In this document: positions 15,391 to 29,912 of the stretch, piece after piece | How positions within the stretch are numbered: position 1 is the stretch's first letter | How the letters are laid out: each line of letters begins with the position of its first letter | IMG/VR virus record: IMGVR_UViG_3300030109_004637 | Coordinates: 1 to 62,021 of that record | From: a virus | Lineage: Duplodnaviria > Caudoviricetes | DNA: 62,021 nt | Direction: 5' to 3' (one strand) | Notes under the pieces: model-generated | Told to the model about the DNA's origin: nothing | The model's input: only the letters and a program-made list of their open reading frames with translations | Databases searched by the model: none | Program-made: the position numbers and the translations under genes

Positions 15391-16656
15391 TTATTTATTG
15401 TTTTTAAGTTTAAATTTAAAACTAGCAGAATCATCACCCAATACTTTAACTTTTAAACCTCCAGTATCAATATCAGTATGAGATGATCTAGAGTCCATGT
15501 TTATGTTTTTAGATTTAGAAACACTATCCTTGATAGCATCAGCTTTACCTTGCTCATAAAAATGTTTAGCTATAGCATCAGAGTTCATTGCTGTAAATAA
15601 AGATTTATGATAACCCTTAGCATCTGACATTTCATTATTTTCATTTAGAAACTTTCTAATAAAATTATTAATGTCGCTTTGAGTATTTTTTACTTTATCA
15701 GCTTCTTTAACATTAAATCTATATCTTTTATCTCCAACATTATATTCAAAACCTTTGAACGTGTTAGAAAAAACTTCATTAGTTTTTTTATCAAATAAAG
15801 ATTTTTGTTTTTCTGCTAATTTTTGAGACTTTTCAGTCTCTTTGTTATAACGATTAAAAAAATCAATAGCTTTTTGTTGCTCAGGTGCTAACTTAGAACC
15901 CATCTTGATTTCTTCATAGTATCTAGACTTTTGCCCGTCTAGATGGCTTCTAGCATTGGCAACTTGCTCTTTAAATGCTAGTTTTTTTCTTTTAATATCT
16001 CTTTCATCATCAACATCTTCGTCATAAAGAAAATTATCTTCAATTAGAAAATTTATTTCATCGCTTGATAAATGAGGTTTTGTTTGTTTATAGTAATCTA
16101 ATAATAATGAATTATCATCAATCTTACTGTAATCTTGATTTAGTCTAACATAATCTTCTAGACTTCCTCCAGTTTCTTCCATAAATTCAACTACCTTTTG
16201 TATGTTTTCAGGTAATTTAACTCCAGTTTCTTTTTGTTCTTCTACAGCTTCTTTAACTTCTTCAGTTAACTCTTCTGTTTTTTCTTGAACTTGTTTTTCT
16301 TCCTCGTCTTTTATTTCTTCAAGTACAGGTTGTTCTTCTACCTTTTCTTCTTCTTTTTGTTCGGTAAGTTTTTCATTTGTTTCTTGCTTGTTTTCTTCAA
16401 GAACCTCTTTGCTAGCTTCGGGTTCGTCGCGAACAGAAACCTCATCTGTGCTTTGCTCTTCAACGGCATCTTCTTCTTTTTTTACTGGTGGTTTTGATAA
16501 GTCAATTTTTATAACATTATCATCTGATTGTTTTTTTAATGAAGGTCTACCCCTCTTTTTTTTAACTTGTACTTTTTCTTCAACAGGTTTTTCCTGTGTA
16601 GTAGTAGTAGACTCGTTTTTATCCACCACTACTTCTTCTATTGTTTTTTCTTCCAT
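15391..16656 (-). CDS. Capsid scaffolding protein
   Basis: 421 aa, very Glu-rich N-half, helical C-half, directly upstream of the capsid gene. Confidence 0.7.
   Translation of the reverse strand: MEEKTIEEVVVDKNESTTTTQEKPVEEKVQVKKKRGRPSLKKQSDDNVIKIDLSKPPVKKEEDAVEEQSTDEVSVRDEPEASKEVLEENKQETNEKLTEQKEEEKVEEQPVLEEIKDEEEKQVQEKTEELTEEVKEAVEEQKETGVKLPENIQKVVEFMEETGGSLEDYVRLNQDYSKIDDNSLLLDYYKQTKPHLSSDEINFLIEDNFLYDEDVDDERDIKRKKLAFKEQVANARSHLDGQKSRYYEEIKMGSKLAPEQQKAIDFFNRYNKETEKSQKLAEKQKSLFDKKTNEVFSNTFKGFEYNVGDKRYRFNVKEADKVKNTQSDINNFIRKFLNENNEMSDAKGYHKSLFTAMNSDAIAKHFYEQGKADAIKDSVSKSKNINMDSRSSHTDIDTGGLKVKVLGDDSASFKFKLKNNK
16338..16469 (-). CDS. Overprinted 43 aa basic peptide MPLKSKAQMRFLFATNPKLAKRFLKKTSKKQMKNLPNKKKKKR in the +1 frame of the scaffold gene
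   Basis: ATG at 16469, TAG at 16338-16340; coincides with a GC/CpG-rich patch in the scaffold gene; not in the ORF track. Confidence 0.65.
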   Translation of the reverse strand: MPLKSKAQMRFLFATNPKLAKRFLKKTSKKQMKNLPNKKKKKR

Positions 16657-16690
16657 GATATAATATAATATAAATTAAAAAATTGTTTTA

Positions 16691-18391
16691 TTATCCTTCT
16701 AGAGTTTCTATTCTAGATTTAAGATCCTCTATAATAACTTGTTGCTCTTGGATTGCTTTGACTAATCCTACATAAATTGCATTTTTTTCTAAACCAAATC
16801 TTTGATCACCGTCATAATCAAATTCCGATACTGATTCGGGAATTATCTCTTTTACCTCTTGAGCAATAAAACCAAATTGTTTCTTTGAGTTTTTATCTCC
16901 GTTTAACCAATTAAATTTTATTGATCTTAATTTTAATATTTCAGATAATCCGTAATCAATATTTTCAATGTTTGTTTTTAATCTTGAATCTGATGGATCA
17001 CTATTTGTTAAAATTCCTGCTCCTGTCGAAAAAACATCACCACTTCCTAAATCATTTACTTTTACAGATGTTGAATACATTTGCCCTGTAATATTAACAC
17101 CGGTTGCTACAATACTTGCAGTATTTGTAGCACCAGCTGTAAATATCATCTCATTATCGGAGCCATGAACATAAGTTATTCCACCTACATCAGCGTCAGC
17201 CGCATCTCCAAATTTAATAGCACATTGACCACTTCCCATAATACTCATACCCACTGAAGCCACACCGGGATCAATAATAAAATCGTCTGCTACTGATTCT
17301 GGAGATACTGTAGTAGCAGTCCCAGTTTTAAGTGTACCATTTGCTGTTAATGTACCTGAAAAAGTTGAATCATTACCAGCTATGTTAAGTGATGATACTT
17401 GACCACCATTAGCTAATGTCATTATTTCTAACTTAGTGTCTTCAGCGCCAGCAGAAGCATCAGTCATGATACCTCTTATTAAAACAGATTCTTTAACTGT
17501 ATTACCATTATTATCTCCATAAAAGTAAATTCTACCACTTTCATGATTATTTGCACCAGTGTCTGTATTTTGCAGAGCTAAAGTTCCACCACTTGTACTA
17601 TCAGCATCATCTTGTATGGTTACTGTAGCTCCTGTATCAGTAGTTGTTATATTACCTGCAAAAGTTGCATTGGCAGAAGCATCAAAACCTAAAGCTGTAG
17701 TATCAGGCGCTCCATCAGATGCACTTAACCGAAGTTGAAAAGTTCCTTGCGTTGTAGCATCAGCACCATAACATCTGATTTCTGAAGTTGCATTATCTTC
17801 TTGAGAAATTTTAATAGAACTCGCTGTGTGTGATAAATTTGCTCCTGTAGAAACAAATCTTGAAGCATTAACAATACCTGAAAAAGTTGCATTTTGACTA
17901 GAATCTAAAGTTAATGCTAAATTACCACCACCTGTTGTAAATTTAAGAGCACCACTTTCAGATCTCATTATAAAATCAGTATTAGCTGCACCACTTAATA
18001 AAGAAGTACCATTACCTATATAACCTGCAACTGTACTAGTATTATAAGCAAACTCAGTGTAACCAGAAGTTGCATTTGTAGTAGCAAAAGTAGTAATATC
18101 AGAAGATGAAGATGTTATTGTTGAGGTTACATTACTTACAGTAAAATTACCATCTACAACAAATCCAACATTAGCTGCTGCTGCTGCTGTATCTACAGTT
18201 GTAATTGTAAAAGCTCCATTAGCGGCTGCGGCAAGAGTGATAGTGTCATTTGCAGATGGCGTAAACACCAAATTTGCTGCTGCATCATTACCAATATTTA
18301 ATCCATCCAAATGAGCTAAAGACCAAAATTTACTTGATGTTCCCAATTGACCTTCACTATCATCGTTGGGTACTATGTTCTTTGTTGCCAT
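16691..18391 (-). CDS. Tail fibre/spike with C-terminal intramolecular chaperone (peptidase S74-like)
   Basis: Ala/Thr/Gly beta-rich repeats; SDSRLKTNI...GFIAQEV...coiled-coil C-terminus. Confidence 0.85.
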   Translation of the reverse strand: MATKNIVPNDDSEGQLGTSSKFWSLAHLDGLNIGNDAAANLVFTPSANDTITLAAAANGAFTITTVDTAAAAANVGFVVDGNFTVSNVTSTITSSSSDITTFATTNATSGYTEFAYNTSTVAGYIGNGTSLLSGAANTDFIMRSESGALKFTTGGGNLALTLDSSQNATFSGIVNASRFVSTGANLSHTASSIKISQEDNATSEIRCYGADATTQGTFQLRLSASDGAPDTTALGFDASANATFAGNITTTDTGATVTIQDDADSTSGGTLALQNTDTGANNHESGRIYFYGDNNGNTVKESVLIRGIMTDASAGAEDTKLEIMTLANGGQVSSLNIAGNDSTFSGTLTANGTLKTGTATTVSPESVADDFIIDPGVASVGMSIMGSGQCAIKFGDAADADVGGITYVHGSDNEMIFTAGATNTASIVATGVNITGQMYSTSVKVNDLGSGDVFSTGAGILTNSDPSDSRLKTNIENIDYGLSEILKLRSIKFNWLNGDKNSKKQFGFIAQEVKEIIPESVSEFDYDGDQRFGLEKNAIYVGLVKAIQEQQVIIEDLKSRIETLEG

Positions 18392-18404
18392 GTTTTATTT
18401 TTTT

Positions 18405-18737
18405 TTATTCACTAATATATTTTCTAACAACAGTTGGTGTTGCTTTTTCTTGTATTACTTCTTCAATTACACTTTTATAGTGATTTATTTGATCTGTACC
18501 AAGAGAAGTTTGAACCCAACCAGTTACATCAGATTCTTTTAAATCTGCAAACTCTGTAAAACTAGAAAGATCTGAGGTGTCTATTTCTGCAACACCAGTT
18601 GATGATGATAAGTTTTTTTCTTCCGTATCATCTACACCTGTTAGTTCCCAATATACTTTAAATATTACATCTGATTTACCACTTTTTGTTGGGTAGGTAT
18701 CTACAGATTTTGTGTCCCATGTATATGTTATTGCCAT
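18405..18737 (-). CDS. Tail-fibre-associated small protein
   Basis: 110 aa, MAITYTW...FADLKESDVTGWV; adjacent to the fibre gene. Confidence 0.55.
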   Translation of the reverse strand: MAITYTWDTKSVDTYPTKSGKSDVIFKVYWELTGVDDTEEKNLSSSTGVAEIDTSDLSSFTEFADLKESDVTGWVQTSLGTDQINHYKSVIEEVIQEKATPTVVRKYISE

Positions 18738-18764
18738 TGTTTTGTTATTTTATGTTTATATTTT

Positions 18765-19004
18765 TTATTTTGGTGTTAAATCTCCATTACCATCTACGTT
18801 CCAATAACCTTCTTCACCGGGTGAAACTGCAGGTGTTAGTTCTGTACTAGTTACATCCCATGAATCACTAAAGTCATAAGCAATACCATCTCTAGGTGTT
18901 AGCTCACCACCAACAACATCCCACACATAATCTTCTATTGCAGCAGCAGCAGATGCACCACTAGTTACGGAAGATAAATCTATGCTTAATCCTAACCCCG
19001 GCAT
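18765..19004 (-). CDS. Small protein with three W-(D/N)-V...LTP repeats
   Basis: WDVVGGELTP / WDVTSTELTP / WNVDGNGDLTP. Confidence 0.6.
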   Translation of the reverse strand: MPGLGLSIDLSSVTSGASAAAAIEDYVWDVVGGELTPRDGIAYDFSDSWDVTSTELTPAVSPGEEGYWNVDGNGDLTPK

Positions 19005-19372
19005 TAGTATCCTAAGTAAGCGATTACACCACCATCAGCATCAGCTGCTATTGTAAAAGTATCCCATCTACCAAATATCGTAAGACCTTTTGGAAATACA
19101 TTAGATGAATCTATAATTTTACCTCCAGAAGGACCCGGACTATCTCCAGCATTTGGTGTTGATGTACCACCAGCACCTACTTCTCCTGAAGCATTACCTA
19201 CACAAATACCAGCTTGACCATTAGTAGGTGAAAGTTCACTAAAAGTTGTATCTGCTAAAAATTGTATTGCAATTATTTTACGATCATCTGGTGGAACTAC
19301 TTGATCTGTATGATCAGTAAATATAGATCCATTTTGTCCAAAGTCATAACCTGTTCCGAAATGTATACTCAT
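19004..19372 (-). CDS. Putative structural protein
   Basis: 122 aa, FPKGLTIFGRW motif, downstream of the portal gene. Confidence 0.55.
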   Translation of the reverse strand: MSIHFGTGYDFGQNGSIFTDHTDQVVPPDDRKIIAIQFLADTTFSELSPTNGQAGICVGNASGEVGAGGTSTPNAGDSPGPSGGKIIDSSNVFPKGLTIFGRWDTFTIAADADGGVIAYLGY

Positions 19373-19399
19373 TTTGTTTTTGTTTTATTTATGTTTTAT

Positions 19400-21817
19400 T
19401 TATCTAGGATCAAAAGCACCTAAGTTAAAATTACCACCTAATATATCATTACCTGCTGACTCAAAGTTTTTAGGTGGTTTATCTTTTTTTCTTTGATCAA
19501 TTAATTCAGATTGTTGAGATGCTTGTATTTTTGTTCTTTCATCTTTACGATCTTCTTTTTCTTTTTCTCTATTTTTAAATGATTGAACCTCAATTTGTTT
19601 TAGTTGCATATTCATTTGAAATTCCAACTGCATCAATTCTTTTTTAGCAGCAACTTCTTGTTGCATTTTTTGTGCTTCTAATTGTGCCTTAAGTTGTTCT
19701 AATTGACTATCTACCTGAACTAAAGCTTGTTGTTTTTGTACCTCTGATTCTGCGGCGGCAGATTGTTGTGCGGCATTTGCTTGAGCTTGAGCTTGTATAT
19801 TTTGTTGAGCAACTTGTTGATCTCTTTGTTGTTTCTTTTTTCTTCTTAACTTTAAAACTTGATTAGCTAACTTAATATTATTTATTTCTCTTATATCAAT
19901 AGCATCTTCAAGATCTATAGTTTTTTGTTGAACAGCTACTTGAATATTATTTTCAAGCATTGCTTTTTCTTCTTCATCAGGTTTTAATTCAATAAATATA
20001 CCAAAATCATGCATATGCAAATTAGACATCTCTTCTAATGTAGCTACATTATGTACACCTATACTTTGTATAAAAGCTTCTTTTGTAGGAGAATATTCTA
20101 TTACATCAGATATTCTTAATGATAAGCATTCAGCTGTTTCAGCTGTTAAAAATAAACCTGATTGTAATATATGCCTTGTTGCTGTATTAGAATTAGCTGC
20201 TGCTATTTTTTGAAGACCTACTAAAGAATTTTTATCAGGAGTGCTACCATCTCTAGCTTCATTTAAGCCAGTAACATCTCTTATCATTTGTAAGTAATAA
20301 TTATAAGTTTGTATTAGTGTTTGCATTTTAGCTCCACCACTACCACTAGCTATTTCTTGTATAGGTACTTTTCCAGGATTAAGATCTCCATCTGAAGTAA
20401 GTGATCTACCTATAATACTACCAGTTTGAAAAAACATATTTAATGCTTCTTGAGGATTATAGTTTGTTCCATTACCAAGATCAACTTCAGCTATACCATC
20501 AGCATCTAAATAAACACCATCTGGTATCATCCTTGACATTACTTGCTGTAGCTTTAAATGAGTTAGCTGTATCATATCAGCAAAACCAGTTATTCTACTT
20601 ACTAGTGATTCTACTCTACCTTGATAAACTCTAGGAGCAACAATACTGTAATTCATTTTAACTTTAGTGTTATCACTTTTTGGCCTCATCATATTTTCAG
20701 CCATTTCCCATTTTAACAGCTTACTGCTACCTAAAGCCATAACACCTTCGTACAATACTTCTAATGATCTAGAAACTTTTTCAAAATTTTCATCTGATAC
20801 TTCAGATGGTGGGTTAAAGTTGTCATCTTTATTTATTGCTTTATTAGCACCAGTACCTGTAGTTTTTATTTTATAAACTTCATTCATATATGTTTTATAA
20901 TTAAAATATAAAACATCTATTTGATTATTATCTTTTTGATCGTACTGATACCTACTACTACGAGTTTTTACTGTAGTTGAATAATTTTGTATTTCCTTTA
21001 AATCTTCATTTGTTAGTTGAGGAAACTCTTTTTTTAATTCGTTTATTGGTACTGTTTTTATTTCGCCAACGTAATATATATCTTCAAAGTATGGTGACTC
21101 AGTATATGAATAAACTAAGTTTATTGGATCTACATATTCTATTTTTATGCCTTCAGATTTACTAAATGTATTTTTAATACAACCTATACCTAATACTGTT
21201 AAATCATAAAAAAATCTTTTTTTAGTTAATTCATATTTATTTTTTTCAAACAAAACATTTAAAGCTTGTTCTTCTGCTATTTCAATAGCTTGTTTGTAAG
21301 TTAACTGCATATGAAGCTCAAGTTCTTCTTTAGAATCTGGTAATTCTTCTTCTGGTGTTGATGCAAGGCTTACATTAAAATTTTCTTTAAAAAAACTGTC
21401 AAAGTTTTTAAGTCTCATGTCAGATAAAATACCCTCCATGTAATCAGTTCTTTTACTTATTCCATTTGGATCTTGAGAAAAAGCTTTTATGTCATAAGTT
21501 CTTTCAGAAATACCATTAACAACTATATCTACAAATTTAGGTATAATAGGTACTGGTTTCCAGTCTAAATTAAGATAAGATAAATCACCATTTATAGATA
21601 ATTCATCTTTATATTTTTGTATGGACTGCTCACCTCTAGCATAAAGTCTTAGTTTGTGATAATTATTATAATTAGTTCTATACCTGTGATTACCACTATC
21701 ACCGTAAAACCATTCAGTTTCTATAGCTCTAGCAACCTTAAGTCCATATTCTGGACTTATTTTTTCAAGATCACTAGCTACTTGGCTAGGAAAATAATTT
21801 TTAATAGAATCAGCCAT
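19400..21817 (-). CDS. Portal protein
   Basis: 805 aa; LRLYARGEQ, WKPVPIIPKFVDIVVNG, IRDVTGLNEARDG; Gln-rich barrel-like C-terminus; follows terL. Confidence 0.85.
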   Translation of the reverse strand: MADSIKNYFPSQVASDLEKISPEYGLKVARAIETEWFYGDSGNHRYRTNYNNYHKLRLYARGEQSIQKYKDELSINGDLSYLNLDWKPVPIIPKFVDIVVNGISERTYDIKAFSQDPNGISKRTDYMEGILSDMRLKNFDSFFKENFNVSLASTPEEELPDSKEELELHMQLTYKQAIEIAEEQALNVLFEKNKYELTKKRFFYDLTVLGIGCIKNTFSKSEGIKIEYVDPINLVYSYTESPYFEDIYYVGEIKTVPINELKKEFPQLTNEDLKEIQNYSTTVKTRSSRYQYDQKDNNQIDVLYFNYKTYMNEVYKIKTTGTGANKAINKDDNFNPPSEVSDENFEKVSRSLEVLYEGVMALGSSKLLKWEMAENMMRPKSDNTKVKMNYSIVAPRVYQGRVESLVSRITGFADMIQLTHLKLQQVMSRMIPDGVYLDADGIAEVDLGNGTNYNPQEALNMFFQTGSIIGRSLTSDGDLNPGKVPIQEIASGSGGAKMQTLIQTYNYYLQMIRDVTGLNEARDGSTPDKNSLVGLQKIAAANSNTATRHILQSGLFLTAETAECLSLRISDVIEYSPTKEAFIQSIGVHNVATLEEMSNLHMHDFGIFIELKPDEEEKAMLENNIQVAVQQKTIDLEDAIDIREINNIKLANQVLKLRRKKKQQRDQQVAQQNIQAQAQANAAQQSAAAESEVQKQQALVQVDSQLEQLKAQLEAQKMQQEVAAKKELMQLEFQMNMQLKQIEVQSFKNREKEKEDRKDERTKIQASQQSELIDQRKKDKPPKNFESAGNDILGGNFNLGAFDPR

Positions 21818-24032
21818 ATTGTTCTGTTATTATTTTAGATGACATGCCTTCGTTTTTATATTTAGCAAATCCAATATTTATTTTTCTTTTTTCTCTTTGT
21901 ATGTTTGGTGCATATAAATTTCTATTGCAAGCCATAACAGCTAAACCACTACTTATAGATGCATCAAATTTTGTTCTGTTATTTATGTCAAATTTTGACC
22001 AATCATTTAATGTTGTATTAAAATACATACTACCATAACTACCATCACTCTTTAAACCAACATTATTTTGTATATACATTTCAATAGCAGCAGCATGAGC
22101 CTGCTTCATGTCTTCACTAGAGTTAGGTATACCACCTATTTCTTTTTCTGTTATTGATAGTTTGTTCCAAATTTTATCTGGTCTATTCATAGAATAACCT
22201 CTATAACCTCTACGTCTTAAATAATACAAAAGCCTAGGCTTATTATTCTCTGCTAGTATTGGCATGCCATAAAATACAAGCGCCATTAATACATCTTCAA
22301 AAAATATTTCTGCAGTTTGAGGTCTAGCTAAATATTCTAAAAAGAAACTAGTACTTGGTGCTTCTTCCATTGAAAACTTTGTTAGTCCGTGTAAAGCTCC
22401 TTTAGAACCTTGACCGTCAACAGTACCAGATATATCATAACTATCACATCCAAAAGCACCGATATGTTCATTACCTGGTTTTTTACCGTTACTAGTTTGT
22501 ATTACTTTATTTTGCAAATGAGTTGGTGGCACCCAACTAATATTAAATCTACCTTTAGGATCTGGATAAAATATTACTTTTGAATCTTTAATACCATTTA
22601 CCCATTGAAAATTACCAGTTGTTATAGCTGAATTATTATTAACACCTTCATTATAATCTATTTGTTCGTATATTCTAGTTAAATTAAATATACTATTCTT
22701 AGTTTCATCTCTAAATGCATGCTCTTCTGTTCTAGGAAACTGTCTATAAAACTCATTTAAAGCATCAGGATCATTTTTTAAACCATCAACTTCATTTTGC
22801 CAATGATCTAATATACCTGTATCTATGTATTCCCCATAAGGTCCTTTAACTTCTTTTTCAGGTGTATCAAATACTGGCTGACCGTACTCATCAATAAACC
22901 CCTCGTAATTCCATTCCATAGGAATAAAAAGGCTATAAAGCCCAGAACTAGTTTGTCCATTTCTATTTCGTTTATTGACATCTGAATCTCTGTATAGTTT
23001 TTTAAAATTCTCACCACCTTTGTCTAAAGCATTAGACGTAGATCCCATCATACATTTACCTATAACTCTACTACCTAACCTTAACGTTGTTTTTGTGACT
23101 TGCCAGTTGTTGAGTATGTTGTTTGGCTTTTCCCACTTCCCTGATTCATCATGTACGAGGAGTTTAAGTTTTTCCCCATCGTAGGAGTTGTCGCCGGTAT
23201 TTTTCCAATCGATTGTGGTGTCCAATCCTTGTAAATCAGCTGGTCTTTCCGAACTCGTGATACTCCGTCTGGTAAGTTTTGATGCTGGTACTCTGAATGC
23301 AAGTTCTGTTTTAGGTCTATCCATACCGTCTTGGATTGGTTTGAAGAAGAAGGGGTAGTTGACAGATATTGGCACGACCTTGTCAGTGAACATCTTCTTA
23401 GCATCGGGTCCAGACTTGGACAAAATGCCGTACCTCGAATCACTGGATATTGTAGCAAGGTTAACCGATTCTCCACTTGCCATGAAAGAAAACCCTGATC
23501 TTCTGTTCTTAAGATAACACATCCCATAGGATCTTGCATCTGATTTACAAGCCTCCCAAAAGATGTAGAATAATCTATTGGCTTCACGATAATCTGGTTT
23601 CCCGACGTCAATTTTACTCCATTGCAAGTACATGTAATGAGCACCAGTAATATAAGTAGGGCAGCCGTTGTTATAGTACCATAAACCTTCTTCTCTAATT
23701 TTGAACTCATTTTCTATATATTCTATATGTTTTTCTTTAAAACTATTAGGATACTCCTTCCAATCAAATATTGTTTTTATTTTACTAAGTTCTTCTGGAC
23801 ACTCAGTATACTCCCATTTATTGCTTTTAAACTTAACAATATTAGTTTGTTTTGGTAAAGCTATTTTAAGATTTTGTATCTCATATACTTCACCTATTTG
23901 ACCGGTTTTACTAATTATAACAACATCATGTTCTTTGTTATAACCATACTCCCATTTTTTAGACTTGTTAAGTCTTGTTATTGTATTTAATTTAATTGGA
24001 GTTATAACCTTATATAAGGTTTGTTTATACAT
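21810..24032 (-). CDS. terL: Terminase large subunit
   Basis: Walker A-like KNRRSGFS, Walker B LLVHDESGK, nuclease motifs FGCDSYD and FDASISSG. Confidence 0.9.
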   Translation of the reverse strand: MYKQTLYKVITPIKLNTITRLNKSKKWEYGYNKEHDVVIISKTGQIGEVYEIQNLKIALPKQTNIVKFKSNKWEYTECPEELSKIKTIFDWKEYPNSFKEKHIEYIENEFKIREEGLWYYNNGCPTYITGAHYMYLQWSKIDVGKPDYREANRLFYIFWEACKSDARSYGMCYLKNRRSGFSFMASGESVNLATISSDSRYGILSKSGPDAKKMFTDKVVPISVNYPFFFKPIQDGMDRPKTELAFRVPASKLTRRSITSSERPADLQGLDTTIDWKNTGDNSYDGEKLKLLVHDESGKWEKPNNILNNWQVTKTTLRLGSRVIGKCMMGSTSNALDKGGENFKKLYRDSDVNKRNRNGQTSSGLYSLFIPMEWNYEGFIDEYGQPVFDTPEKEVKGPYGEYIDTGILDHWQNEVDGLKNDPDALNEFYRQFPRTEEHAFRDETKNSIFNLTRIYEQIDYNEGVNNNSAITTGNFQWVNGIKDSKVIFYPDPKGRFNISWVPPTHLQNKVIQTSNGKKPGNEHIGAFGCDSYDISGTVDGQGSKGALHGLTKFSMEEAPSTSFFLEYLARPQTAEIFFEDVLMALVFYGMPILAENNKPRLLYYLRRRGYRGYSMNRPDKIWNKLSITEKEIGGIPNSSEDMKQAHAAAIEMYIQNNVGLKSDGSYGSMYFNTTLNDWSKFDINNRTKFDASISSGLAVMACNRNLYAPNIQREKRKINIGFAKYKNEGMSSKIITEQYG
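22823..22960 (-). CDS. Possible second +1-frame peptide inside terL (MDKLVLGFIAFLFLWNG...)
   Basis: Same +1 frame as 23081-23710; hydrophobic N-terminus and basic C-terminus. Confidence 0.25.
   Translation of the reverse strand: MDKLVLGFIAFLFLWNGITRGLLMSTVSQYLIHLKKKLKDLMGNT
23081..23710 (-). CDS. Overprinted 209 aa protein with N-terminal signal/TM segment and Cys, in the +1 frame of terL
   Basis: 630 nt stop-free; local GC rise and C-ending terL codons; four stops within 12 codons from its end. Confidence 0.6.
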   Translation of the reverse strand: MSSKLEKKVYGTITTAALLILLVLITCTCNGVKLTSGNQIIVKPIDYSTSFGRLVNQMQDPMGCVILRTEDQGFLSWQVENRLTLLQYPVIRGTAFCPSLDPMLRRCSLTRSCQYLSTTPSSSNQSKTVWIDLKQNLHSEYQHQNLPDGVSRVRKDQLIYKDWTPQSIGKIPATTPTMGKNLNSSYMMNQGSGKSQTTYSTTGKSQKQR

Positions 24033-24035
24033 ATA

Positions 24036-24428
24036 TTATCCTTTTGTAAAGAAAGCATATTCAGCAACTATTGTATTTGCAGAAGCTTCTAATTGTACCG
24101 CAACTGAACCACCAGTTCTACCTATTGGAACAAACATAAATTCACCTGCACTTAATTCTCCAAAAGATTTGTCATCTTCTATTTCAACTTCTAAAGTTGA
24201 TGTTACCGCAGCATCATTTTCATCAACTCCGGTGTGTTTTACATACAAATATCTAATACTAGAAGCTGACGCACATATTATTGTTGAACCACCTGTAGTT
24301 GAAGCTGATATTTTACTTAATCCTATTATAGGATCTGTTACTGTTAAAGAATCTGTTAAATTTAAATTTAAAGGATTAGATGTAGCGTCTGTACTTGATA
24401 GTATTAATGTTGCTGATAATGTTGCCAT
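24036..24428 (-). CDS. Hypothetical beta-rich virion-type protein
   Basis: 130 aa, LSAGEFMFVP...VAEYAFF. Confidence 0.55.
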   Translation of the reverse strand: MATLSATLILSSTDATSNPLNLNLTDSLTVTDPIIGLSKISASTTGGSTIICASASSIRYLYVKHTGVDENDAAVTSTLEVEIEDDKSFGELSAGEFMFVPIGRTGGSVAVQLEASANTIVAEYAFFTKG

Positions 24429-24436
24429 ATTTTTTT

Positions 24437-24715
24437 TTATTTAGATCTTTTTTCTGCAAAACCACCAAATGACACATCTTTTTTTATATCAACTGGTATT
24501 TTGTTTTCTATTATGTTTTCTTCTTCTTCTATTCTTTTTAATATTTCAAAGGCATCAAAGATAGCAAGTTTTTTTGTTGCTGCTGCATTTTTTAATCTGT
24601 CTGCAGATATATCATCGTCTGAATCAACAATAGCTTCTTTAGCTACTTTTATTAATTCTTCAACCGCTACTTGCCCAGCTTGGATTATATTCTTCTTCGT
24701 TTCCTTTGTATTCAT
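24437..24715 (-). CDS. Helical protein, candidate terminase small subunit
   Basis: 92 aa helical ORF two genes upstream of terL; assignment is positional only. Confidence 0.4.
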   Translation of the reverse strand: MNTKETKKNIIQAGQVAVEELIKVAKEAIVDSDDDISADRLKNAAATKKLAIFDAFEILKRIEEEENIIENKIPVDIKKDVSFGGFAEKRSK

Positions 24716-25265
24716 ATTTAATTGTAATTTGACTAGTTAAAACTCTATATAGTCTTTCACCGTCAATAATAAATTCATAAGTGCTTATAGGTGTAAATCC
24801 AACTAAGTCACCTTCTTTTAAACCAAATTCTAAAAGTGCTTTGTTACTTTGTTTCAAAATACCTACACACTCTTTTTCTTGATTTGAAGAATATTTATCT
24901 GTAGATTTTATTGGTTTTACAAAACAAAAACCTTCTGTAGCTATCCACTTATTGTTTCTTTTATAAGAAAATATTTGATCTTCTTTTACACAATAAGTAT
25001 TTTCGTTTATATAACTTCTACTATTTTTTTCTTCAGCTTTTATATTATGCCATCTTCTAAATACATTATGATGAACTATTATTTCATCATCTACTTGTAT
25101 TTTAGTAGGTACAGCTATAGGTATTGATTTAACTATAGCTCTTCTACTAACATATTTATGGTTATATATTTCTGTATTAAGTATAAGTTTTTTATCACCT
25201 ATTTCTTTAACATTATTATATCTTGATTTCTTAGGTGATATAATAAAATCATATATACTTTGCAT
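24660..25265 (-). CDS. Hypothetical protein, possible tandem GroES-like fold
   Basis: Two beta-rich halves with IQVDDEIIVHH and LKEGDLVGF patterns resembling GroES. Confidence 0.45.
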   Translation of the reverse strand: MQSIYDFIISPKKSRYNNVKEIGDKKLILNTEIYNHKYVSRRAIVKSIPIAVPTKIQVDDEIIVHHNVFRRWHNIKAEEKNSRSYINENTYCVKEDQIFSYKRNNKWIATEGFCFVKPIKSTDKYSSNQEKECVGILKQSNKALLEFGLKEGDLVGFTPISTYEFIIDGERLYRVLTSQITIKYEYKGNEEEYNPSWASSG

Positions 25266-25495
25266 TAATATTCTAGATTATACTCTACTGATATAGCCAT
25301 GTTTTTATTGAAGTTTTTCCAAATAATAACATCTTCATTTTTTTTAATATAAATGTCATACCCTTCATCTTCTTCAATTATATTATAAATCTTATGACCT
25401 CCATAAACCTCTTGACCTACAGAGTAATGCATAGATTCATTTTTATAATCTTTACCAATACTAATTTTACGTATTAGCTTGCTGCTCATCTTCAA
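25265..25495 (-). CDS. Hypothetical protein
   Basis: 76 aa ORF in operon. Confidence 0.6.
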   Translation of the reverse strand: MKMSSKLIRKISIGKDYKNESMHYSVGQEVYGGHKIYNIIEEDEGYDIYIKKNEDVIIWKNFNKNMAISVEYNLEY

Positions 25496-25721
25496 TTGGA
25501 GTTATGGTGCCGTCTACAATATTAACGTTTACTTTACCGTATTGTTTTTCAAGTGTTTCTTGAAAATCTTTAAGACCTTTTTGAACCTCACCTATTTGAT
25601 GAAGTAGTACGTGTTTTTGAGTTTCAAGTTGACCAATTTGTGATTGACCATTGTTTATTTGTTTTACTAAACCTTGTATTGCTTCTAACTCGTCTTTTTT
25701 AATTTTTTTAACTTTACTCAT
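25467..25721 (-). CDS. Coiled-coil hypothetical protein
   Basis: 84 aa, ...LEKQYGKVNVNIVDG. Confidence 0.6.
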   Translation of the reverse strand: MSKVKKIKKDELEAIQGLVKQINNGQSQIGQLETQKHVLLHQIGEVQKGLKDFQETLEKQYGKVNVNIVDGTITPIEDEQQANT

Positions 25722-25756
25722 TATTTTAAATTTAATTAAATTTTACTTGTTAATAT

Positions 25757-25785
25757 TTAAATTACACAAATACTTTGTTTTTTAA
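25757..25785 (-). promoter_or_regulatory. Putative late promoter TTAAA-N13-GTGTAAT
   Basis: Intergenic; matches the late motif. Confidence 0.5.
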
Positions 25786-25788
25786 AAT

Positions 25789-26235
25789 TTACTTTGCACT
25801 TGTGCCATAATAATATGCAAATATATTACTTATAACAACACCTTCTACCATACCCATTAAATGTACAAACAAATCATTATCAGTTACAGTAGGTACATAA
25901 ACTACTGCATATATTATAAAAGCAAATGACATTAACCCAACTATTCCGGTCAATGTCATCATAAAGTCTTTTTTACCAGTTTTAGCAACTTCTATTTCCC
26001 TGTTTCTAGCAGAGTCTCTATCAGCTACTTCTAGTTTATACATTTCAGCATGTTGCTTATTTAATATCTTTTTATCCTCAGGTGATATCTTAGGATCATT
26101 GTCAATCATCTTACCTACCATACTAAGCACACCTGCGTCTGGTATTAAATCACCTGCAACATTAAGTATTTTAGGTGCTAAGTTTTTTAGCAGTCCACCT
26201 AACTTGGTGTCTTTAAATTTTTTCTTTTCACTCAT
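25789..26235 (-). CDS. Holin-like membrane protein
   Basis: DRDSARNRE followed by two hydrophobic helices and YYYGTS. Confidence 0.6.
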   Translation of the reverse strand: MSEKKKFKDTKLGGLLKNLAPKILNVAGDLIPDAGVLSMVGKMIDNDPKISPEDKKILNKQHAEMYKLEVADRDSARNREIEVAKTGKKDFMMTLTGIVGLMSFAFIIYAVVYVPTVTDNDLFVHLMGMVEGVVISNIFAYYYGTSAK

Positions 26236-26549
26236 GTTTTTCTTCTTCTTCTTTTTCCACTCACTCTTTTACGCCTAGAAGCTTTGTATGCTTCTTTTTC
26301 CCAAGGTAAATTTTCACTACCTTCATCTATTTTATTTCTTGGATATGTCTTTCCTTTCCAATAAAAATTTTTATTATCATAATCAAGATCACCTCTTCTC
26401 ATTTGTTCTAAATGAACCTTTTCATGAGCAATCACTCGTTTTGCTTGAGCACTGTTTTTATCTATAGATTTATTAATAAGTATTGTATTACCTTTATTCG
26501 CCTGGCCTAAAACATTTTTACCTAAACGCTTTTTAATTACACGTACCAT
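26232..26549 (-). CDS. Small zincin-like metallopeptidase
   Basis: VIAHEKVH (HExxH) and PWEKEAY. Confidence 0.7.
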   Translation of the reverse strand: MVRVIKKRLGKNVLGQANKGNTILINKSIDKNSAQAKRVIAHEKVHLEQMRRGDLDYDNKNFYWKGKTYPRNKIDEGSENLPWEKEAYKASRRKRVSGKRRRRKT

Positions 26550-26551
26550 AC

Positions 26552-26992
26552 TTATCTATCTTTGTCTTTTATCATATCATCTAAAGCTTTATTCATTACT
26601 TTATCAGTATATGTTTTGTTTTTATGAAAAACATTTCTTTCTGTAAATGGTGGATCTTCTTCACCTAGTAGTATTCTATATATTCTACTTATTACTTGAC
26701 TACATTTAAACGATGTTTTAAATACACTGTATTTTATAGTAGTCCTATTTCTTTGTCTCCAAACCTCTATCCAACCCTCTCTTTTTAATCTCTCCCACCT
26801 GTGCTTATCCCAAGTATATGTATAAGCACCATCTATAAATTCATTACGTGTAAATCTTCCTTTACAATCTAAGTATATTAATAATTCAAGATCAGCATCA
26901 CTTAAACCATAAGTTTTACAGACCCACTTACGTGTGAGCCTGTAATACTTAAGGATGTTAAGATCACGAAGATCTTGTGCTGTTAATCTCAA
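26552..26992 (-). CDS. Hypothetical protein, possible winged HTH
   Basis: GLSDADLELLIYL...LKREGWI; TTG start. Confidence 0.5.
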   Translation of the reverse strand: MRLTAQDLRDLNILKYYRLTRKWVCKTYGLSDADLELLIYLDCKGRFTRNEFIDGAYTYTWDKHRWERLKREGWIEVWRQRNRTTIKYSVFKTSFKCSQVISRIYRILLGEEDPPFTERNVFHKNKTYTDKVMNKALDDMIKDKDR

Positions 26993-27002
26993 TATTTAAA
27001 TA

Positions 27003-27320
27003 TTAAGTGTCAATTGTTAATGCAGTGCTAGTAATATCTGGATGTAAGAATACAGAATTTACTAAATCACATACTACAATAAAACCATCAACATGAGGTC
27101 CACCATTAATAGCTTGAATTATAGCTTGTGTAACAGCTTTCTCCGTTTGAGTTGTAATTGTTAAAGTTACAAGATCAGTGTCAGCCGCATCATTTGTTGA
27201 GGCTGGTGCAAAAAACAGTTTTAAATCAGTATCTCCATCGTGGATAATACTAATTAAATTTGATACTGGATAGCAATAAGCATCGTTATTTCCATCTTGA
27301 AAATATAAAAATTTATCCAT
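27003..27320 (-). CDS. Hypothetical protein
   Basis: 105 aa ORF. Confidence 0.6.
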   Translation of the reverse strand: MDKFLYFQDGNNDAYCYPVSNLISIIHDGDTDLKLFFAPASTNDAADTDLVTLTITTQTEKAVTQAIIQAINGGPHVDGFIVVCDLVNSVFLHPDITSTALTIDT

Positions 27321-27418
27321 AATTATTATTTGTTTTGAGTTTTAAAATTAATTTACCGTTTGTGGTTACTGGATTATGGGTTTAGGTTTCTGGCTTATTC
27401 TATATTAATAGAATGTCT

Positions 27419-27676
27419 TTATTCGACAAGAACTACGTCTTGTGCTCTTATAATTTTATAAAGGGTGTCTTCATAGCTAATACCATGTCCTGCATGCTTG
27501 TCATAGTATACTATGTCTTTATCATTGACACCCTCGACCTTACTGCCGCAGCTGATAACCTTAGCTCTAATGTAACGATTATCCAGGTCTGTCTTCTCTG
27601 TGAAAATAAGTCCAGCAATCTTTTTTTGCTCTTCTTTTATATCACTTACTATTAAATAGTAATTAATTGCTTTCAT
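27419..27676 (-). CDS. groES: Co-chaperonin GroES
   Basis: 85 aa; mobile loop KKIAGLIF, AKVISCG, IIRAQDVV; overlaps the groEL stop. Confidence 0.85.
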   Translation of the reverse strand: MKAINYYLIVSDIKEEQKKIAGLIFTEKTDLDNRYIRAKVISCGSKVEGVNDKDIVYYDKHAGHGISYEDTLYKIIRAQDVVLVE

Positions 27677-29225
27677 TAGTCCTCATATTAGATATAACAC
27701 AATCTGCAGATATAATAGTTGATACTACACTTACTGCATTTTTTAAAGCTGTCTTTGTAACTAATACAGGATCTATAATCCCACTTTTTACCATATTAAC
27801 GTGTTCACCAGATACAACATTAAAGCCCCAACCTTTTTTTAAAGGTTCAACTGAGTCTTCTATACCTGCATTTTCTAGTATAGTGTTATAAGGTGAGCGT
27901 GTTGCTTGTAATAATATATTTTCACAATCGTTAGAGGGTAGTATTGCTTGTGATGCATTTAATAAAGCTATGCCACCACCAGATATAATACCTTCTTTTA
28001 ATGCTGCTTTTACAGCATGTATTGCATCTTCAACGCGATCTTTCTTTTCTTTTAACTCAACTTTTGAGTCCGCACCTACTCTTACAATACCGACAGAACC
28101 AGATAGCATGCTAAGTCTATCTTGTAATTTTCTTTTTATAAATTCGTTTTTTTCTTTTTCTATTTTCTTTTCAACTTCAGATATTCTTTCACTAATACTA
28201 CTGTTAAGTTCTTTTATAGTAAGTACAGTGTTTTTATTATCTGTAACTGATTTTAATACTTCACCTAAACAATCAGGTTGTATTAGATCTAAATCATCAC
28301 CAAGCTCTTCACTAATAACTTTAGCACCAGTTAGTATAGCTAGATCTTCAATAGCATCTTGTTTGGTAGGTCCAAATCCTGGTAAATCAATAATATTAAC
28401 ACTAATATTACCTTTAACCTTATTCATCATTAAAGCTGATTGAACTTGTTGGGCTACTGAAGCTACTATTAATAAAGATTTTTTATTCTTTATAACGTGT
28501 TCTAATATAGACTGTATTTTTCTAATACTTGGTATTTCTGATGATACTATTAATACTAACGGGTTTTCTAATGTTGCAGTCTCTCTATCTTTATCTGTAA
28601 CAAAATGAGGTGATTTTAAACCGCAGTCTATTTGTACACCATCAACAGTTTCTACATAAGTTTCGTTTGTTTCTGATTCTTCCATTAACACAACACCGTT
28701 TTTACCTACAACGTTGTATGCTTCGGCTATAGTGCTACCTAGTTCTTCATCGTTGTTACATGATATAGTAGCAACACTATCTAACATTTTACCAGAAACA
28801 TCTACACTATTTTTATCTAAAAATTTATTTACTTTGTTTAAAGCAGAGTTTATACCTGATTTAATTTGTCTAGTAGTATATTGTAAATTTGCATTAACTT
28901 CATTTAATAGAGATTCGGCAAGTACGATAGCAGTTGTAGTACCGTCACCTGCCTCCCTCACTGTATTCCTAGAAGCTTCTTTAATAAGAGTAGCTCCTAT
29001 GTTCTCCACTGGATCAAACAAGACAACCGATTCTGCTACGGTTACTCCGTCTTTTGTGATCACTGGTTTACCTCTAGCATCTTCGTAAATAACACATTTA
29101 CCTGATGCACCTAGAGTAGATTTAACAGCGCCTGCTAGTTTTTCTACTCCAGCTGATATTCTATTCTTAGCTGAGTCACCAAAGTTTAAATCTTTGACAA
29201 TCTCGCTAGGCTGATTGTATTCCAT
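27663..29225 (-). CDS. groEL: Chaperonin GroEL
   Basis: VKSTLGASG, ITKDGVTVA, AGDGTTTA, EKKDRVEDA, GIIDPVLV. Confidence 0.95.
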   Translation of the reverse strand: MEYNQPSEIVKDLNFGDSAKNRISAGVEKLAGAVKSTLGASGKCVIYEDARGKPVITKDGVTVAESVVLFDPVENIGATLIKEASRNTVREAGDGTTTAIVLAESLLNEVNANLQYTTRQIKSGINSALNKVNKFLDKNSVDVSGKMLDSVATISCNNDEELGSTIAEAYNVVGKNGVVLMEESETNETYVETVDGVQIDCGLKSPHFVTDKDRETATLENPLVLIVSSEIPSIRKIQSILEHVIKNKKSLLIVASVAQQVQSALMMNKVKGNISVNIIDLPGFGPTKQDAIEDLAILTGAKVISEELGDDLDLIQPDCLGEVLKSVTDNKNTVLTIKELNSSISERISEVEKKIEKEKNEFIKRKLQDRLSMLSGSVGIVRVGADSKVELKEKKDRVEDAIHAVKAALKEGIISGGGIALLNASQAILPSNDCENILLQATRSPYNTILENAGIEDSVEPLKKGWGFNVVSGEHVNMVKSGIIDPVLVTKTALKNAVSVVSTIISADCVISNMRTNESN

Positions 29226-29252
29226 TAAATTAAATTAAATTGATTATATATA

Positions 29253-29911: not shown

Positions 29912-29912
29912 T

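What the first reader, a model, noticed from the sequence alone, without database searches (positions are those of the whole stretch)
23081..23710. 209 aa signal-peptide/lipoprotein-like ORF overprinted on the terminase ATPase domain
Seen: 630 nt with no stop, an ATG in an A-rich context (ATAGAAAATG), and terL codons such as TAC AAC AAC GGC TGC and CTT AAA CTC CTC. From its end the same frame reads TAA, TAG, TAG and TGA within 12 codons. The N-terminus MSSKLEKK-VYGTITTAALLILLVLIT-CTC has a basic n-region, an h-region and a Cys. Inference: an exported or lipid-anchored protein (spanin-like, superinfection exclusion, or other envelope factor) is encoded across the Walker A-B segment. No clear spanin pair is seen elsewhere in the genome.
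Basis: partly seen in the sequence, partly recalled or inferred. Interest (0 to 1): 0.8.

Follow-up and report, generated by a model that had tools for sequence, protein, structure and literature searches.

The report
Hidden gene inside phage terminase gene
A second, shifted reading frame inside this marine phage's DNA-packaging (terminase) gene appears to be a real, naturally selected gene for a small membrane-type protein, probably born from scratch inside an essential gene and since lost in many relatives.

Summary
The 209-codon ORF (23081..23710, minus strand) exists as described, in frame +1 of terL (21810..24032).

It is not chance. With terL's protein and local codon usage held fixed, 3 of 30,000 synonymous shuffles leave the frame open.

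Among 157 distinct related terL genes there are three classes:
- 32 keep a 209-215-codon ORF.
- 31 keep a shorter one of 116-199 codons.
- 94 are broken by codon 35.
- None has its first stop at codons 36-115.

GC at terL third positions rises only where the shifted frame is open. An ATG is kept in 32 of 32 full-length copies. Fourfold-degenerate terL sites under the hydrophobic segment are frozen so that the shifted frame reads Leu. The roughly 160-residue tail is unconstrained in sequence but stays open and low in hydrophobic residues.

Best reading: a de novo overprinted gene for a protein with an N-terminal membrane or signal segment and a hydrophilic, basic tail. Function is unknown and translation is unproven.

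The lipoprotein/spanin idea is not supported: 0 of 32 have a lipobox and there is no partner ORF. I found no report of such a gene in terL beyond the small T7-group ORFs 19.2/19.3.

The parts
21810..24032 (-). terL (large terminase subunit), 740 aa. This is the host gene, read in frame 0.
   Evidence: phrog_6681 at E 3.9e-169. It has 74-88% aa identity to 159 metagenomic relatives.
23081..23710 (-). Overprinted ORF in frame +1 of terL: 209 codons plus a TAA stop.
   Evidence: Searches show the ORF. It is conserved as a 209-215-codon ORF in 32 of 157 distinct relatives and as a 116-199-codon ORF in 31 more.
23708..23716 (-). TAG AAA ATG: an in-frame upstream stop, one codon, then the ORF's ATG.
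   Evidence: An in-frame ATG upstream of the hydrophobic segment is present in 32/32 full-length, 27/31 shorter and 41/94 broken relatives. The 50 nt around the start are less structured in the full class (mean MFE -1.55) than in the broken class (-3.12); Mann-Whitney p = 3e-4, not corrected for phylogeny.
23624..23686 (-). Hydrophobic segment, ORF residues 9-29 (VYGTITTAALLILLVLITCTC).
   Evidence: Kyte-Doolittle 19-residue mean is 2.24 in the window and 1.65-2.83 across the 32 copies. terL fourfold sites at columns 18, 21 and 23 show 0 changes on the tree in the full class, against 29-33 changes in the broken class at the two of them that could be counted there (columns 18 and 21).
23567..23623 (-). 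Conserved juxtamembrane stretch, ORF residues 30-48 (consensus SG.[RK]L.LG.Q....Q.DYS).
   Evidence: Residues conserved only in the ORF-bearing class: S30, L34, G37, Y47, S48. Third-position entropy over columns 20-39 is 0.57 bits in the open class and 1.08 in the closed class.
23084..23566 (-). Variable hydrophilic, basic tail, ORF residues 49-209.
   Evidence: There is no extra synonymous constraint. It still has 0 stops against 2.0-5.0 expected, median P0 0.003. GC3 is raised to 0.47-0.56. Compared with the pseudo-translation of closed relatives it is richer in P, S, T, R and G and poorer in L, I, V and K.

Best explanation
**What is shown**
- Frame +1 of the Walker A to Walker B part of terL carries a reading frame that natural selection keeps open, in the window and in a subset of its uncultured marine relatives.
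- Selection acts in three ways:
  1. It removes stop codons over 116-215 codons.
  2. It keeps an ATG just upstream of the hydrophobic segment.
  3. It freezes otherwise silent terL third positions so that the first ~50 residues keep a Leu-rich hydrophobic helix followed by C-T-C-S-G and a short motif.
- The remaining ~160 residues are free in sequence. They are kept open and shifted in composition: terL GC3 rises, giving more Pro, Ser, Thr, Arg and Gly and roughly half as many hydrophobic residues.

**What is inferred**
- The ORF is translated from the late terL mRNA by internal initiation at its own ATG.
- The product is a low-abundance single-pass membrane or signal-anchored protein with a disordered, basic tail.
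- It arose de novo by overprinting inside this clade. More distant cultured relatives lack it.
- It is accessory: it has been lost at least several times, and after loss the patch decays back to AT-rich third positions and fills with stops.

**Function (guess)**
A late-acting envelope protein, for example lysis timing or lysis itself, or exclusion of other phages. The N-terminal helix would be the active part and the tail a non-specific hydrophilic appendage, as in phiX174 protein E.
For: **1. Length test**
- In the window, 3 of 30,000 synonymous shuffles within the region leave frame +1 open. With the codon usage of the rest of terL, 0 of 30,000 do.
- Each of 17 open relatives tested has 0 stops against 3.6-6.6 expected, P <= 0.004.
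- Two control segments of the same genes, and frame +2, show observed close to expected.

**2. Distribution of stops in relatives**
- Stops in the 209 homologous codons over 157 distinct terL genes: 32 with 0, 3 with 1, 1 with 2, mode about 10, maximum 18.
- First-stop position is bimodal: codons 12-35 in 94, codons 116-215 in 63, and none at codons 36-115.
- The sequences are independent enough: 142 clusters at 90% nucleotide identity, of which 30 are full, 27 shorter and 85 broken.

**3. Stop avoidance is specific to context and frame**
- In open copies NTA codons make up 25-34% before C or T, and 0% before A or G.
- NTG codons make up 31% before G, and 0% before A.

**4. GC3 tracks the open frame**
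- GC3 is 0.40-0.66 in open copies against 0.14-0.33 in closed copies, only inside the region. GC1 and GC2 are equal in the two groups.
- In shorter-ORF copies GC3 is 0.372 before the first stop and 0.281 after it (26 of 30 copies). The same split gives 0.441/0.598 in full copies and 0.259/0.266 in broken ones.

**5. Natural controls: high GC3 without an open frame**
- L094 has 9 stops, L122 has 7 and L127 has 10.
- L081 has GC3 of 0.42 throughout and 10 stops.

**6. Frozen silent sites**
- On a tree built from the flanks, fourfold third-position sites in the 32 full copies change 2-16 times at 110 flank sites (mean 9.7).
- Inside the region, columns 18, 21 and 23 change 0 times, column 35 once and column 36 twice. 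Where the broken class could be counted at these columns it shows 24-33 changes.
- The variation that is allowed gives A/V or T/I in the shifted frame, which fits a helix.

**7. Start codon**
- ATG is kept in 32/32 full, 27/31 shorter and 41/94 broken copies.
- RNA structure around it is weaker in full copies.

**8. De novo origin**
- Elemovirus, two Cellulophaga phages, a Tenacibaculum phage and MW202828 have 10-16 stops and no GC3 patch.
- The ORF has no Pfam or PHROG match.
- The profile search found only copies of this same ORF.
Against: - There is no direct evidence of translation or of a separate transcript. The laid runs were contigs only.
- The TAnnTTTG motif 62 nt upstream is not specific to the ORF-bearing class.
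- Over the tail, silent-site divergence equals that of the flanks. For open-open pairs the region/flank ratio is 0.96-1.34. The ORF proteins average 50% identity against 86% for the terL segment. Most of the protein therefore has no sequence constraint, which is unusual for a functional protein.
- The protein language model gives it a 'recognition' of 1802. The tool says 91 in 100 known-family proteins reach 2300 and only 9 in 100 shuffled or reversed ones do, and also that the value does not show whether a gene is real.
- 94 of 157 relatives do without it.
- Classes were defined by the trait itself, and the sequences share ancestry. The flank tree needs only 7 changes between ORF-bearing and broken states.
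- The basic charge of the tail also appears in the pseudo-translation of closed copies, so it is not selected as such.
- The 160 relatives are the 80 best matches from each of two collections, not a random sample of the family.
Confidence: 0.75

Rival explanations
1. Non-coding by-product. The GC-rich patch has another cause, such as a recombined segment, mRNA structure, or local codon adaptation of the ATPase domain. The +1 frame is open only because stops are AT-rich.
For: - GC3 and openness go together.
- The region-only DNA tree groups the open copies, as a shared imported segment would. That tree is flagged for compositional bias.
- The tail shows no silent-site constraint.
Against: - Local codon usage still predicts 3.5-6.6 stops where none occur.
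- NTA and NTG codons are used freely except where they would create a +1 stop.
- Copies with GC3 of at least 0.41 but no ORF carry 6-10 stops.
- Only third positions differ between sister open and closed copies; first and second positions do not.
- GC3 falls right after the stop in shorter copies.
- Frozen sites spell a hydrophobic helix, and the ATG is kept.
Confidence: 0.08
2. The frame is read, but by programmed +1 ribosomal frameshifting out of terL. This would give a truncated terL N-terminus fused to the +1 product rather than an independent protein.
For: - Ribosomes already translate this mRNA.
- Some database proteins join terL frame-0 stretches to the +1 ORF: 8 of the 15 hits of at least 230 aa that I checked, and P0010.
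Against: - Those chimeras switch in both directions and come from DNA-level indels in assembled contigs, not from decoding.
- A +1 stop lies within two codons upstream of the ATG in 26 of the 32 full copies listed (my count from that listing). That leaves almost no room for a shift site upstream of the conserved helix.
- The ATG is kept in 32/32 full copies against 41/94 broken ones.
- I did not search for +1 shift motifs.
Confidence: 0.07
3. One reading: an exported lipoprotein or spanin-type outer-membrane factor.
For: - The N-terminus has a basic n-region, a Leu-rich h-region and small residues (C-T-C-S-G).
- K+R is higher on the N-flank than on the C-flank in 24 of 32 copies (equal in 7), which weakly favours N-in/C-out.
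- No lysis gene was recognised elsewhere in what I scanned.
Against: - A lipobox [LVI][ASTVIGCLM][GAS]C is present in 0 of 32 copies.
- A K or R sits 3-4 residues after the segment.
- There is no second hydrophobic segment; the second-best 19-residue Kyte-Doolittle mean is at most 1.11.
- No partner ORF exists in frame +2 (15-25 stops) or on the other strand (ORFs of at most 69 aa).
- The tail is rich in Pro, Ser and Thr, unlike the helical coiled-coil periplasmic domain I recall for spanins (recalled, not tested).
- The gene is absent from 94 of 157 relatives.
Confidence: 0.05

Closest known systems
phiX174 lysis gene E, nested in the scaffold gene D
   Same: - A membrane protein gene lies wholly inside an essential late gene.
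- According to passages of PMC5405515, the N-terminal region holds the only transmembrane domain and is responsible for toxicity, and about 500 molecules per cell suffice.
- Here too only the N-terminal helix region is sequence-constrained, and the tail is basic.
- That E lies in the +1 frame of D and has a replaceable C-terminus is recalled, not checked.
   Different: - E is 91 aa (recalled); this ORF is 209 aa.
- The host phage here is a 62-kb dsDNA phage.
- There is no sequence similarity to any family.
- Lysis activity is untested, and 94 of 157 relatives lack the ORF, so it cannot be the family's only lysis device.
T7-group ORFs 19.2 and 19.3, nested in gene 19 (large terminase)
   Same: - These are small basic ORFs annotated inside a terL gene.
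- In the table of PMC4925675 (passages read), gp19 lies at 36501..38264, ORF 46.2 at 37213..37383 (56 aa, pI 10.0) and ORF 46.3 at 37687..37815 (42 aa, pI 11.9).
- By my arithmetic both are in frame +1.
   Different: - They are 42-77 aa and sit in an unrelated terL family.
- I saw no evidence in these papers for selection, expression or function.
- I did not compare their sequences with this ORF.
Lambda Rz1 in Rz and T7 18.7 in 18.5 (embedded o-spanins)
   Same: - An envelope protein gene is embedded in another late gene.
- 18.7 inside 18.5 is visible in the same table of PMC4925675 (for example 36189..36443 within 36062..36526).
   Different: - Those are lipoproteins with a lipobox (recalled) and work with the gene that hosts them.
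- Here there is no lipobox (0 of 32), and the host gene is a cytoplasmic packaging ATPase.
De novo overprinted viral genes in general
   Same: The shifted composition and likely disorder of the novel frame fit what abstracts in the listing report:
- PMC6195259: overlapping genes differ in composition from non-overlapping genes.
- bioRxiv 10.1101/229690: overlapping regions encode more intrinsic disorder (39% against 25%).
- PMC6188560: a single-genome method for detecting candidate overlapping genes in viruses. From recall, not from the abstract start I saw, it uses codon-permutation and synonymous-mutation tests of the kind I applied.
   Different: - Most documented cases are in small RNA or ssDNA viruses.
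- This one is in a large dsDNA phage.
- Natural intact, shortened and decayed alleles are all sampled here.

Membership tests
Overprinted (same-strand overlapping) protein-coding gene | The ORF is longer than expected given the host gene's protein sequence and codon usage. | tested here: met
   3 of 30,000 shuffles (local usage) and 0 of 30,000 (usage of the rest of terL) leave the frame open. P <= 0.004 in each of 17 open relatives.
Overprinted (same-strand overlapping) protein-coding gene | The ORF is kept open in diverged relatives beyond neutral expectation. | tested here: met
   63 of 157 distinct relatives keep at least 116 codons open. None has its first stop at codons 36-115, and there is a spike at 0 stops. 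Against the nearest open relative, 0.4-3 new stops were expected per lineage with differing codons.
Overprinted (same-strand overlapping) protein-coding gene | Reduced variability at the host gene's synonymous sites. | tested here: inconclusive
   Met for ORF residues ~13-48. Not met for residues ~50-209, where region/flank ratios are about 1.
Overprinted (same-strand overlapping) protein-coding gene | A conserved start codon. | tested here: met
   ATG in 32/32 full, 27/31 shorter and 41/94 broken copies.
Overprinted (same-strand overlapping) protein-coding gene | The product is detected (translation). | not testable with these tools
   Only contigs of public runs could be laid. No proteomic or ribosome-profiling data were available.
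Bacterial lipoprotein | A lipobox [LVI][ASTVI][GAS]C at the end of the signal peptide. | tested here: not met
   A regex (with position -2 loosened to ASTVIGCLM) matches 0 of 32 copies. The residue before Cys27 is T, L or I, and before Cys29 it is T. The lipobox pattern was recalled; no SignalP or LipoP was available.
Spanin (two-component or unimolecular) | A partner o-spanin ORF embedded or adjacent, or a C-terminal transmembrane domain in a unimolecular spanin. | tested here: not met
   Frame +2 has 15-25 stops in the region. Opposite-strand ORFs are at most 69 aa. No second hydrophobic segment exists.
Holin | One or more transmembrane domains, a charged C-terminus, and linkage to an endolysin gene. 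| tested here: inconclusive
   One hydrophobic segment and a basic tail are present. No endolysin was recognised: 11 Pfam families gave 0 hits, and two of those families were also silent in the control genomes. At 209 aa it is larger than most holins (recalled).
phiX174 E-type single-gene lysis protein | Causes lysis alone by blocking a cell-wall synthesis step through its transmembrane domain. | not testable with these tools
   Only the architecture and the pattern of constraint resemble it. There is no sequence relation.
T7-group 19.2/19.3 | Sequence homology to those ORFs. | not tested
   I saw only the coordinates in PMC4925675. The terL families are unrelated at the level searched: one search found relatives only among Flavobacteriia phages and one unclassified phage record.

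The most novel reading that the evidence does not exclude
A roughly 210-residue protein was born de novo inside the ATPase domain of an essential packaging motor gene of a 62-kb dsDNA phage. It acts like phiX174 E: a single N-terminal helix that triggers or times lysis, with a tail that only has to be present and non-hydrophobic. No endolysin from 11 common families is recognisable in this genome. Intact, shortened and decayed alleles coexist in the sea, which would make this a natural time series of gene birth and death.
Probability: 0.12. Interest if true: 0.9.

Novelty: new member of a known kind. Interest (0 to 1): 0.72.

Why it matters
Genome annotators discard ORFs nested in other genes, so overprinted genes in large dsDNA phages are almost unknown.

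This case rests on several signatures that support one another:
- Frame-specific stop avoidance.
- A sharply bounded rise in GC3 that ends where each allele's ORF ends.
- Frozen silent sites that spell a membrane helix.
- A conserved start codon.

It also offers dozens of natural alleles in three states. That makes several open questions testable with plain comparative and bench work:
- How new proteins arise by overprinting.
- What the minimal requirement for a new protein is. Here a helix plus a tail whose only visible constraints are that it stays open and is low in hydrophobic residues seems to be enough.
- How much an essential enzyme pays for hosting a second gene. The terL segment differs at 13.4% of residues between open copies against 10.4% between closed copies at equal flank divergence.

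It also flags a new, abundant protein family in marine viromes: 78 clusters at E <= 1e-30.

Tried and rejected
**Hydrophobic segment as by-product.** I first took the 'signal peptide' to be a by-product of the conserved terL motif T-Y-I-T-G-A-H-Y-M-Y-L-Q-W. The per-column comparison rejected this: closed copies read Q, H or a stop there.

**No constraint at silent sites.** An averaged measure of silent-site divergence suggested none. Per-site analysis showed that constraint is confined to residues ~13-48.

**Imported higher-GC segment.** The region-only DNA tree groups the open copies, but it is flagged for compositional bias. Positions 1 and 2 are not more divergent in open/closed sister pairs. 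Rejected.

**Internal promoter.** TAnnTTTG lies at -62 in 8/32 full, 15/31 shorter and 46/94 broken copies, so it is not class-specific. The motif was recalled from memory.

**Compensating gene next to terL in ORF-less phages.** None was seen in the 1-1.5 kb upstream flanks. The 92-aa gene abuts terL in L083, and its tblastn matches end at the same position just upstream of terL in the other loci listed.

**Public reads.**
- All runs laid were contigs, so there is no information on starts, ends or strand.
- One metatranscriptome (X15) holds a 648-nt contig over 23197..23839 with 71 differences. This shows only that a relative's terL is present in an RNA library.

**Other searches with no useful result.**
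- ESM Atlas: no usable hit.
- Database searches with the ORF returned only the same nested ORF from other contigs. Of the 15 hits of at least 230 aa, 8 were frame-switch chimeras with terL.
- Six literature searches found no report of an overprinted gene in terL beyond T7-group 19.2/19.3. Supplementary files were not consulted.

**Not done.**
- Whole-genome gene-content comparison of ORF-bearing and ORF-less phages was not attempted.
Full report
**1. The observation**

The window is a complete 62,021-nt virus record, with CheckV completeness of 100. terL lies at 21810..24032 on the minus strand and encodes 740 aa. It matches phrog_6681 at E 3.9e-169.

The ORF lies at 23081..23710 on the minus strand, with 209 codons plus TAA. 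It starts 322 nt into terL, so it is in frame +1.

Frame +1 of terL has 42 stops in all, but a 211-codon gap here. Frame +2 has 120 stops.

These are the start context, the N-terminal sequence, the four stops just after the end, and the quoted codons. The one exception is a skipped TAT.

GC is 0.41-0.45 in the patch against about 0.25-0.33 around it. All of the rise is at terL third positions: GC3 is 0.44 in the region and 0.16 in the rest of terL.

**2. Is it chance?**

I held the terL protein and the local codon counts fixed and shuffled synonymous codons. This gives a mean of 5.8 +1 stops, and 3 of 30,000 shuffles have none. With codons drawn from the rest of terL the mean is 12.7, and 0 of 30,000 have none.

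This is the longest nested ORF in the window, so the single-genome p-value carries a selection effect. The weight of the argument therefore rests on the relatives.

**3. Relatives**

Two scans each returned the 80 best matches: IMG/VR and metagenome contigs. Identity to the window's terL is 74-88%. I added GenBank record MW202828 at 62%.

After dropping two loci with N, 160 terL genes were codon-aligned, and 157 of them are distinct. They fall into 142 clusters at 90% nucleotide identity.

Stops in the 209 homologous +1 codons are distributed as follows: 32 genes with 0, 3 with 1, 1 with 2 and 5 with 3, then a broad mode near 10 and a maximum of 18.

The position of the first stop defines three classes:
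- Codons 209-215 in 32 genes ("full").
- Codons 116-199 in 31 genes ("shorter").
- Codons 12-35 in 94 genes ("broken").
- None at codons 36-115, although broken copies carry on average 2.2 stops in that span.

The three closest relatives (88, 85 and 83% identity) are all full.

A neutral frame inherited open would show more copies with one or two stops than with none. Shuffling only the codons that differ from the nearest open relative predicts 0.4-3 new stops per lineage wherever codons differ.

**4. Specificity of the signal**

- In each of 17 open copies tested, frame +1 has 0 stops against 3.6-6.6 expected (P <= 0.004). Frame +2 is as expected.
- Two control segments of the same genes show observed close to expected.
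- In open copies NTA codons make up 25-34% of NTN codons before C or T and 0% before A or G. NTG makes up 31% before G and 0% before A. In the flanks NTA is 41-53% in every context.
- The tail alone (codons 51-209) expects 2.0-5.0 stops, with a median P0 of 0.003.

**5. The GC patch is a consequence of the ORF, not its cause**

- GC1 and GC2 are the same in open and closed copies all along terL. GC3 differs only inside the region: 0.40-0.66 in open copies against 0.14-0.33 in closed ones.
- GC3 follows each allele's own ORF. In shorter copies it is 0.372 before the first stop and 0.281 after it (26 of 30). The same split points give 0.441/0.598 in full copies and 0.259/0.266 in broken ones.
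- Copies with high GC3 but no ORF exist. L094, L122 and L127 have 7-10 stops. MW202828 has GC3 of 0.42 throughout and 10 stops.
- In open/closed sister pairs, silent differences in the region (0.46-0.54) exceed those in the flanks (0.28-0.49), while differences at positions 1 and 2 do not. This fits third positions drifting in place after gain or loss, rather than import of a foreign segment.
- On a protein tree built without the region, the states ORF-bearing and broken need at least 7 changes.

**6. Selection on the encoded protein**

terL third positions are second positions of the +1 codons.

In the 32 full copies:
- Fourfold or threefold terL sites at columns 17, 18, 20, 21 and 23 (counted from the window's ATG column) are 94-100% T. 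This makes the +1 residues Leu in 31-32 of 32 copies.
- Column 27 is 100% TAC (+1 Thr) and column 28 is 100% TTG (+1 Cys).
- Column 29 is 91% CAG (Ser) and column 36 is 94% GGG (Gly).
- Columns 45-47 are at least 91% AGA/TTA/TTC (+1 Asp-Tyr-Ser).

The 80 copies with 8 or more stops have mixed bases at these sites.

Where variation is allowed, at columns 19, 22, 24 and 25, it is C/T only. That gives T/I, A/V and L/T/I in the shifted frame, which is compatible with a helix.

By parsimony on the flank tree, 110 fourfold flank sites change 2-16 times within the full class (mean 9.7). Columns 18, 21 and 23 change 0 times, column 35 once and column 36 twice. Where the broken class could be counted at these columns it shows 24-33 changes.

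Residues conserved only in ORF-bearing copies are I13, L19, L21, L22, L24, T28, C29, S30, L34, G37, Y47, S48 and T128 (the listing stops at residue 130). Shorter copies keep them at 61-100%, and broken copies at 5-47%.

Beyond residue ~50, silent sites vary as in the flanks. ORF proteins average 50% identity against 86% for the terL segment.

**7. Start of the ORF**

An in-frame ATG upstream of the helix, with no stop between, is present in 32/32 full, 27/31 shorter and 41/94 broken copies. Most often it appears as TAG-ATG or TAG-ARR-ATG.

At the column before the window's ATG, Asp is GAT in 66% of open copies but GAC in 64% of closed ones. This goes against the local trend towards higher GC3.

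The 50 nt around the start fold less stably in full copies (mean -1.55 kcal/mol) than in broken ones (-3.12). The Mann-Whitney p is 3e-4, not corrected for phylogeny.

No class-specific promoter-like motif was found.

**8. The product**

- There is one hydrophobic segment, with a 19-residue Kyte-Doolittle mean of 1.65-2.83, and no second one.
- Net charge is +8 to +24.
- The tail of open copies has Pro at 7.2% against 1.2% in the pseudo-translation of closed copies. It has more Ser, Thr, Arg and Gly. L+I+V+F+M falls to about 24% from about 42%.
- The positive charge is similar in both, so it comes from terL and is not selected.
- K+R is higher on the N-flank in 24 of 32 copies, which weakly favours N-in.
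- No canonical lipobox is present in any of the 32.
- There is no Pfam or PHROG match and no ESM Atlas look-alike.

**9. Origin and spread**

Cultured, more distant relatives have 11-16 stops and no patch. These are Elemovirus elemoA, Cellulophaga phages phi46:3 and phi38:1, and Tenacibaculum phage Gundel_1, at 32-45% terL identity. The ORF therefore arose within the uncultured marine clade.

A profile of 38 ORFs found 147 clusters in 1.84 billion representatives, 78 of them at E <= 1e-30, and all 35-374 aa long. Of the 15 hits of at least 230 aa, 8 hold terL frame-0 stretches, meaning they are frame-switch chimeras from contigs. No copy in another genomic context was seen, although these libraries carry no context.

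**10. Mechanism**

*Shown:* a selected open frame with a constrained N-terminal helix, a conserved start, and a compositionally constrained tail.

*Inferred:*
- Internal initiation on the late terL mRNA.
- A low-abundance membrane-inserted or signal-anchored protein.
- An accessory role, since 94 of 157 relatives lack it.

*Guess:* a late envelope function such as lysis timing or lysis, or exclusion. The pattern of constraint is most like phiX174 E, whose N-terminal transmembrane region carries the activity (PMC5405515, passages).

In what I scanned, the genome shows no recognisable endolysin. Eleven Pfam families gave 0 hits, and two of them were also silent in the control genomes. Twenty other ORFs gave no PHROG lysis hit. 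That leaves room for the lysis guess but does not support it.

**11. Known relatives of the idea**

- T7-group phages annotate the small basic ORFs 19.2 and 19.3 inside gene 19, their terL. The coordinates in PMC4925675 put both in frame +1 by my arithmetic.
- Embedded spanin genes such as 18.7 in 18.5 appear in the same table.
- Six literature searches found no description of a long, selected overprinted gene in terL.

**12. Verdict**

- The coding interpretation is well supported by comparative evidence but unproven at the protein level.
- The lipoprotein/spanin reading is not supported.
- It is a new member of the known class of overprinted phage genes, unusual for its length, its host gene and the sampled birth-and-decay series.

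Noticed in passing
window 24036..24428 (-) and 23965..24444 (+): A 130-aa gene lies between the 92-aa gene and terL. Among 159 related loci it is found only in the window and in L082 (50% identity). In L083 the 92-aa gene abuts terL directly, and its matches in the other loci listed end at the same position just upstream of terL. It has no PHROG match. A 159-aa ORF runs antisense across it.
   Followed up: partly
window 27663..29225 (-) and 24660..25265 (-): The phage encodes a GroEL-type chaperonin (phrog_5725, E 4e-136) and a GroES-like protein (phrog_13932, E 1e-16).
   Followed up: no
whole window (1..62021): Six-frame searches with 11 peptidoglycan-hydrolase Pfam families gave no hit. The families were Amidase_2, Amidase_3, Phage_lysozyme, SLT, Peptidase_M15_3, Peptidase_M15_4, Peptidase_M23, GH19, GH25, GH108 and NLPC_P60. 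GH19 and GH108 were also silent in the control genomes. The endolysin of this phage is therefore unrecognised.
   Followed up: partly
window 2091..10883 (-) and 51767..60379 (-): There are two giant ORFs of 2930 and 2870 aa.
   Followed up: no
proteins P0010, P0023, P0027, P0030, P0033, P0048, P0061, P0077, P0093: These database proteins join stretches of terL frame 0 and of the +1 ORF, in either order. They presumably come from indels in assembled contigs. P0077 and P0093 match both frames over long stretches, which suggests several indels.
   Followed up: partly
terL codons 108-318 in relatives (alignment): The terL segment that hosts the ORF differs at 13.4% of residues between open copies against 10.4% between closed copies, at the same flank divergence (22.8% and 22.4%). 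This may be a cost of dual coding. It comes from the 82-sequence set only.
   Followed up: partly
window 24437..24715 (-) and 24660..25265 (-): The 92-aa gene upstream of terL overlaps the end of the GroES-like gene by 56 nt. The same overlap is seen in L083 (723..1001 against 170..778).
   Followed up: no
run X15 over window 23197..23839: A metatranscriptomic library holds a 648-nt contig of a relative's terL with 71 differences. It shows presence in an RNA library only.
   Followed up: no
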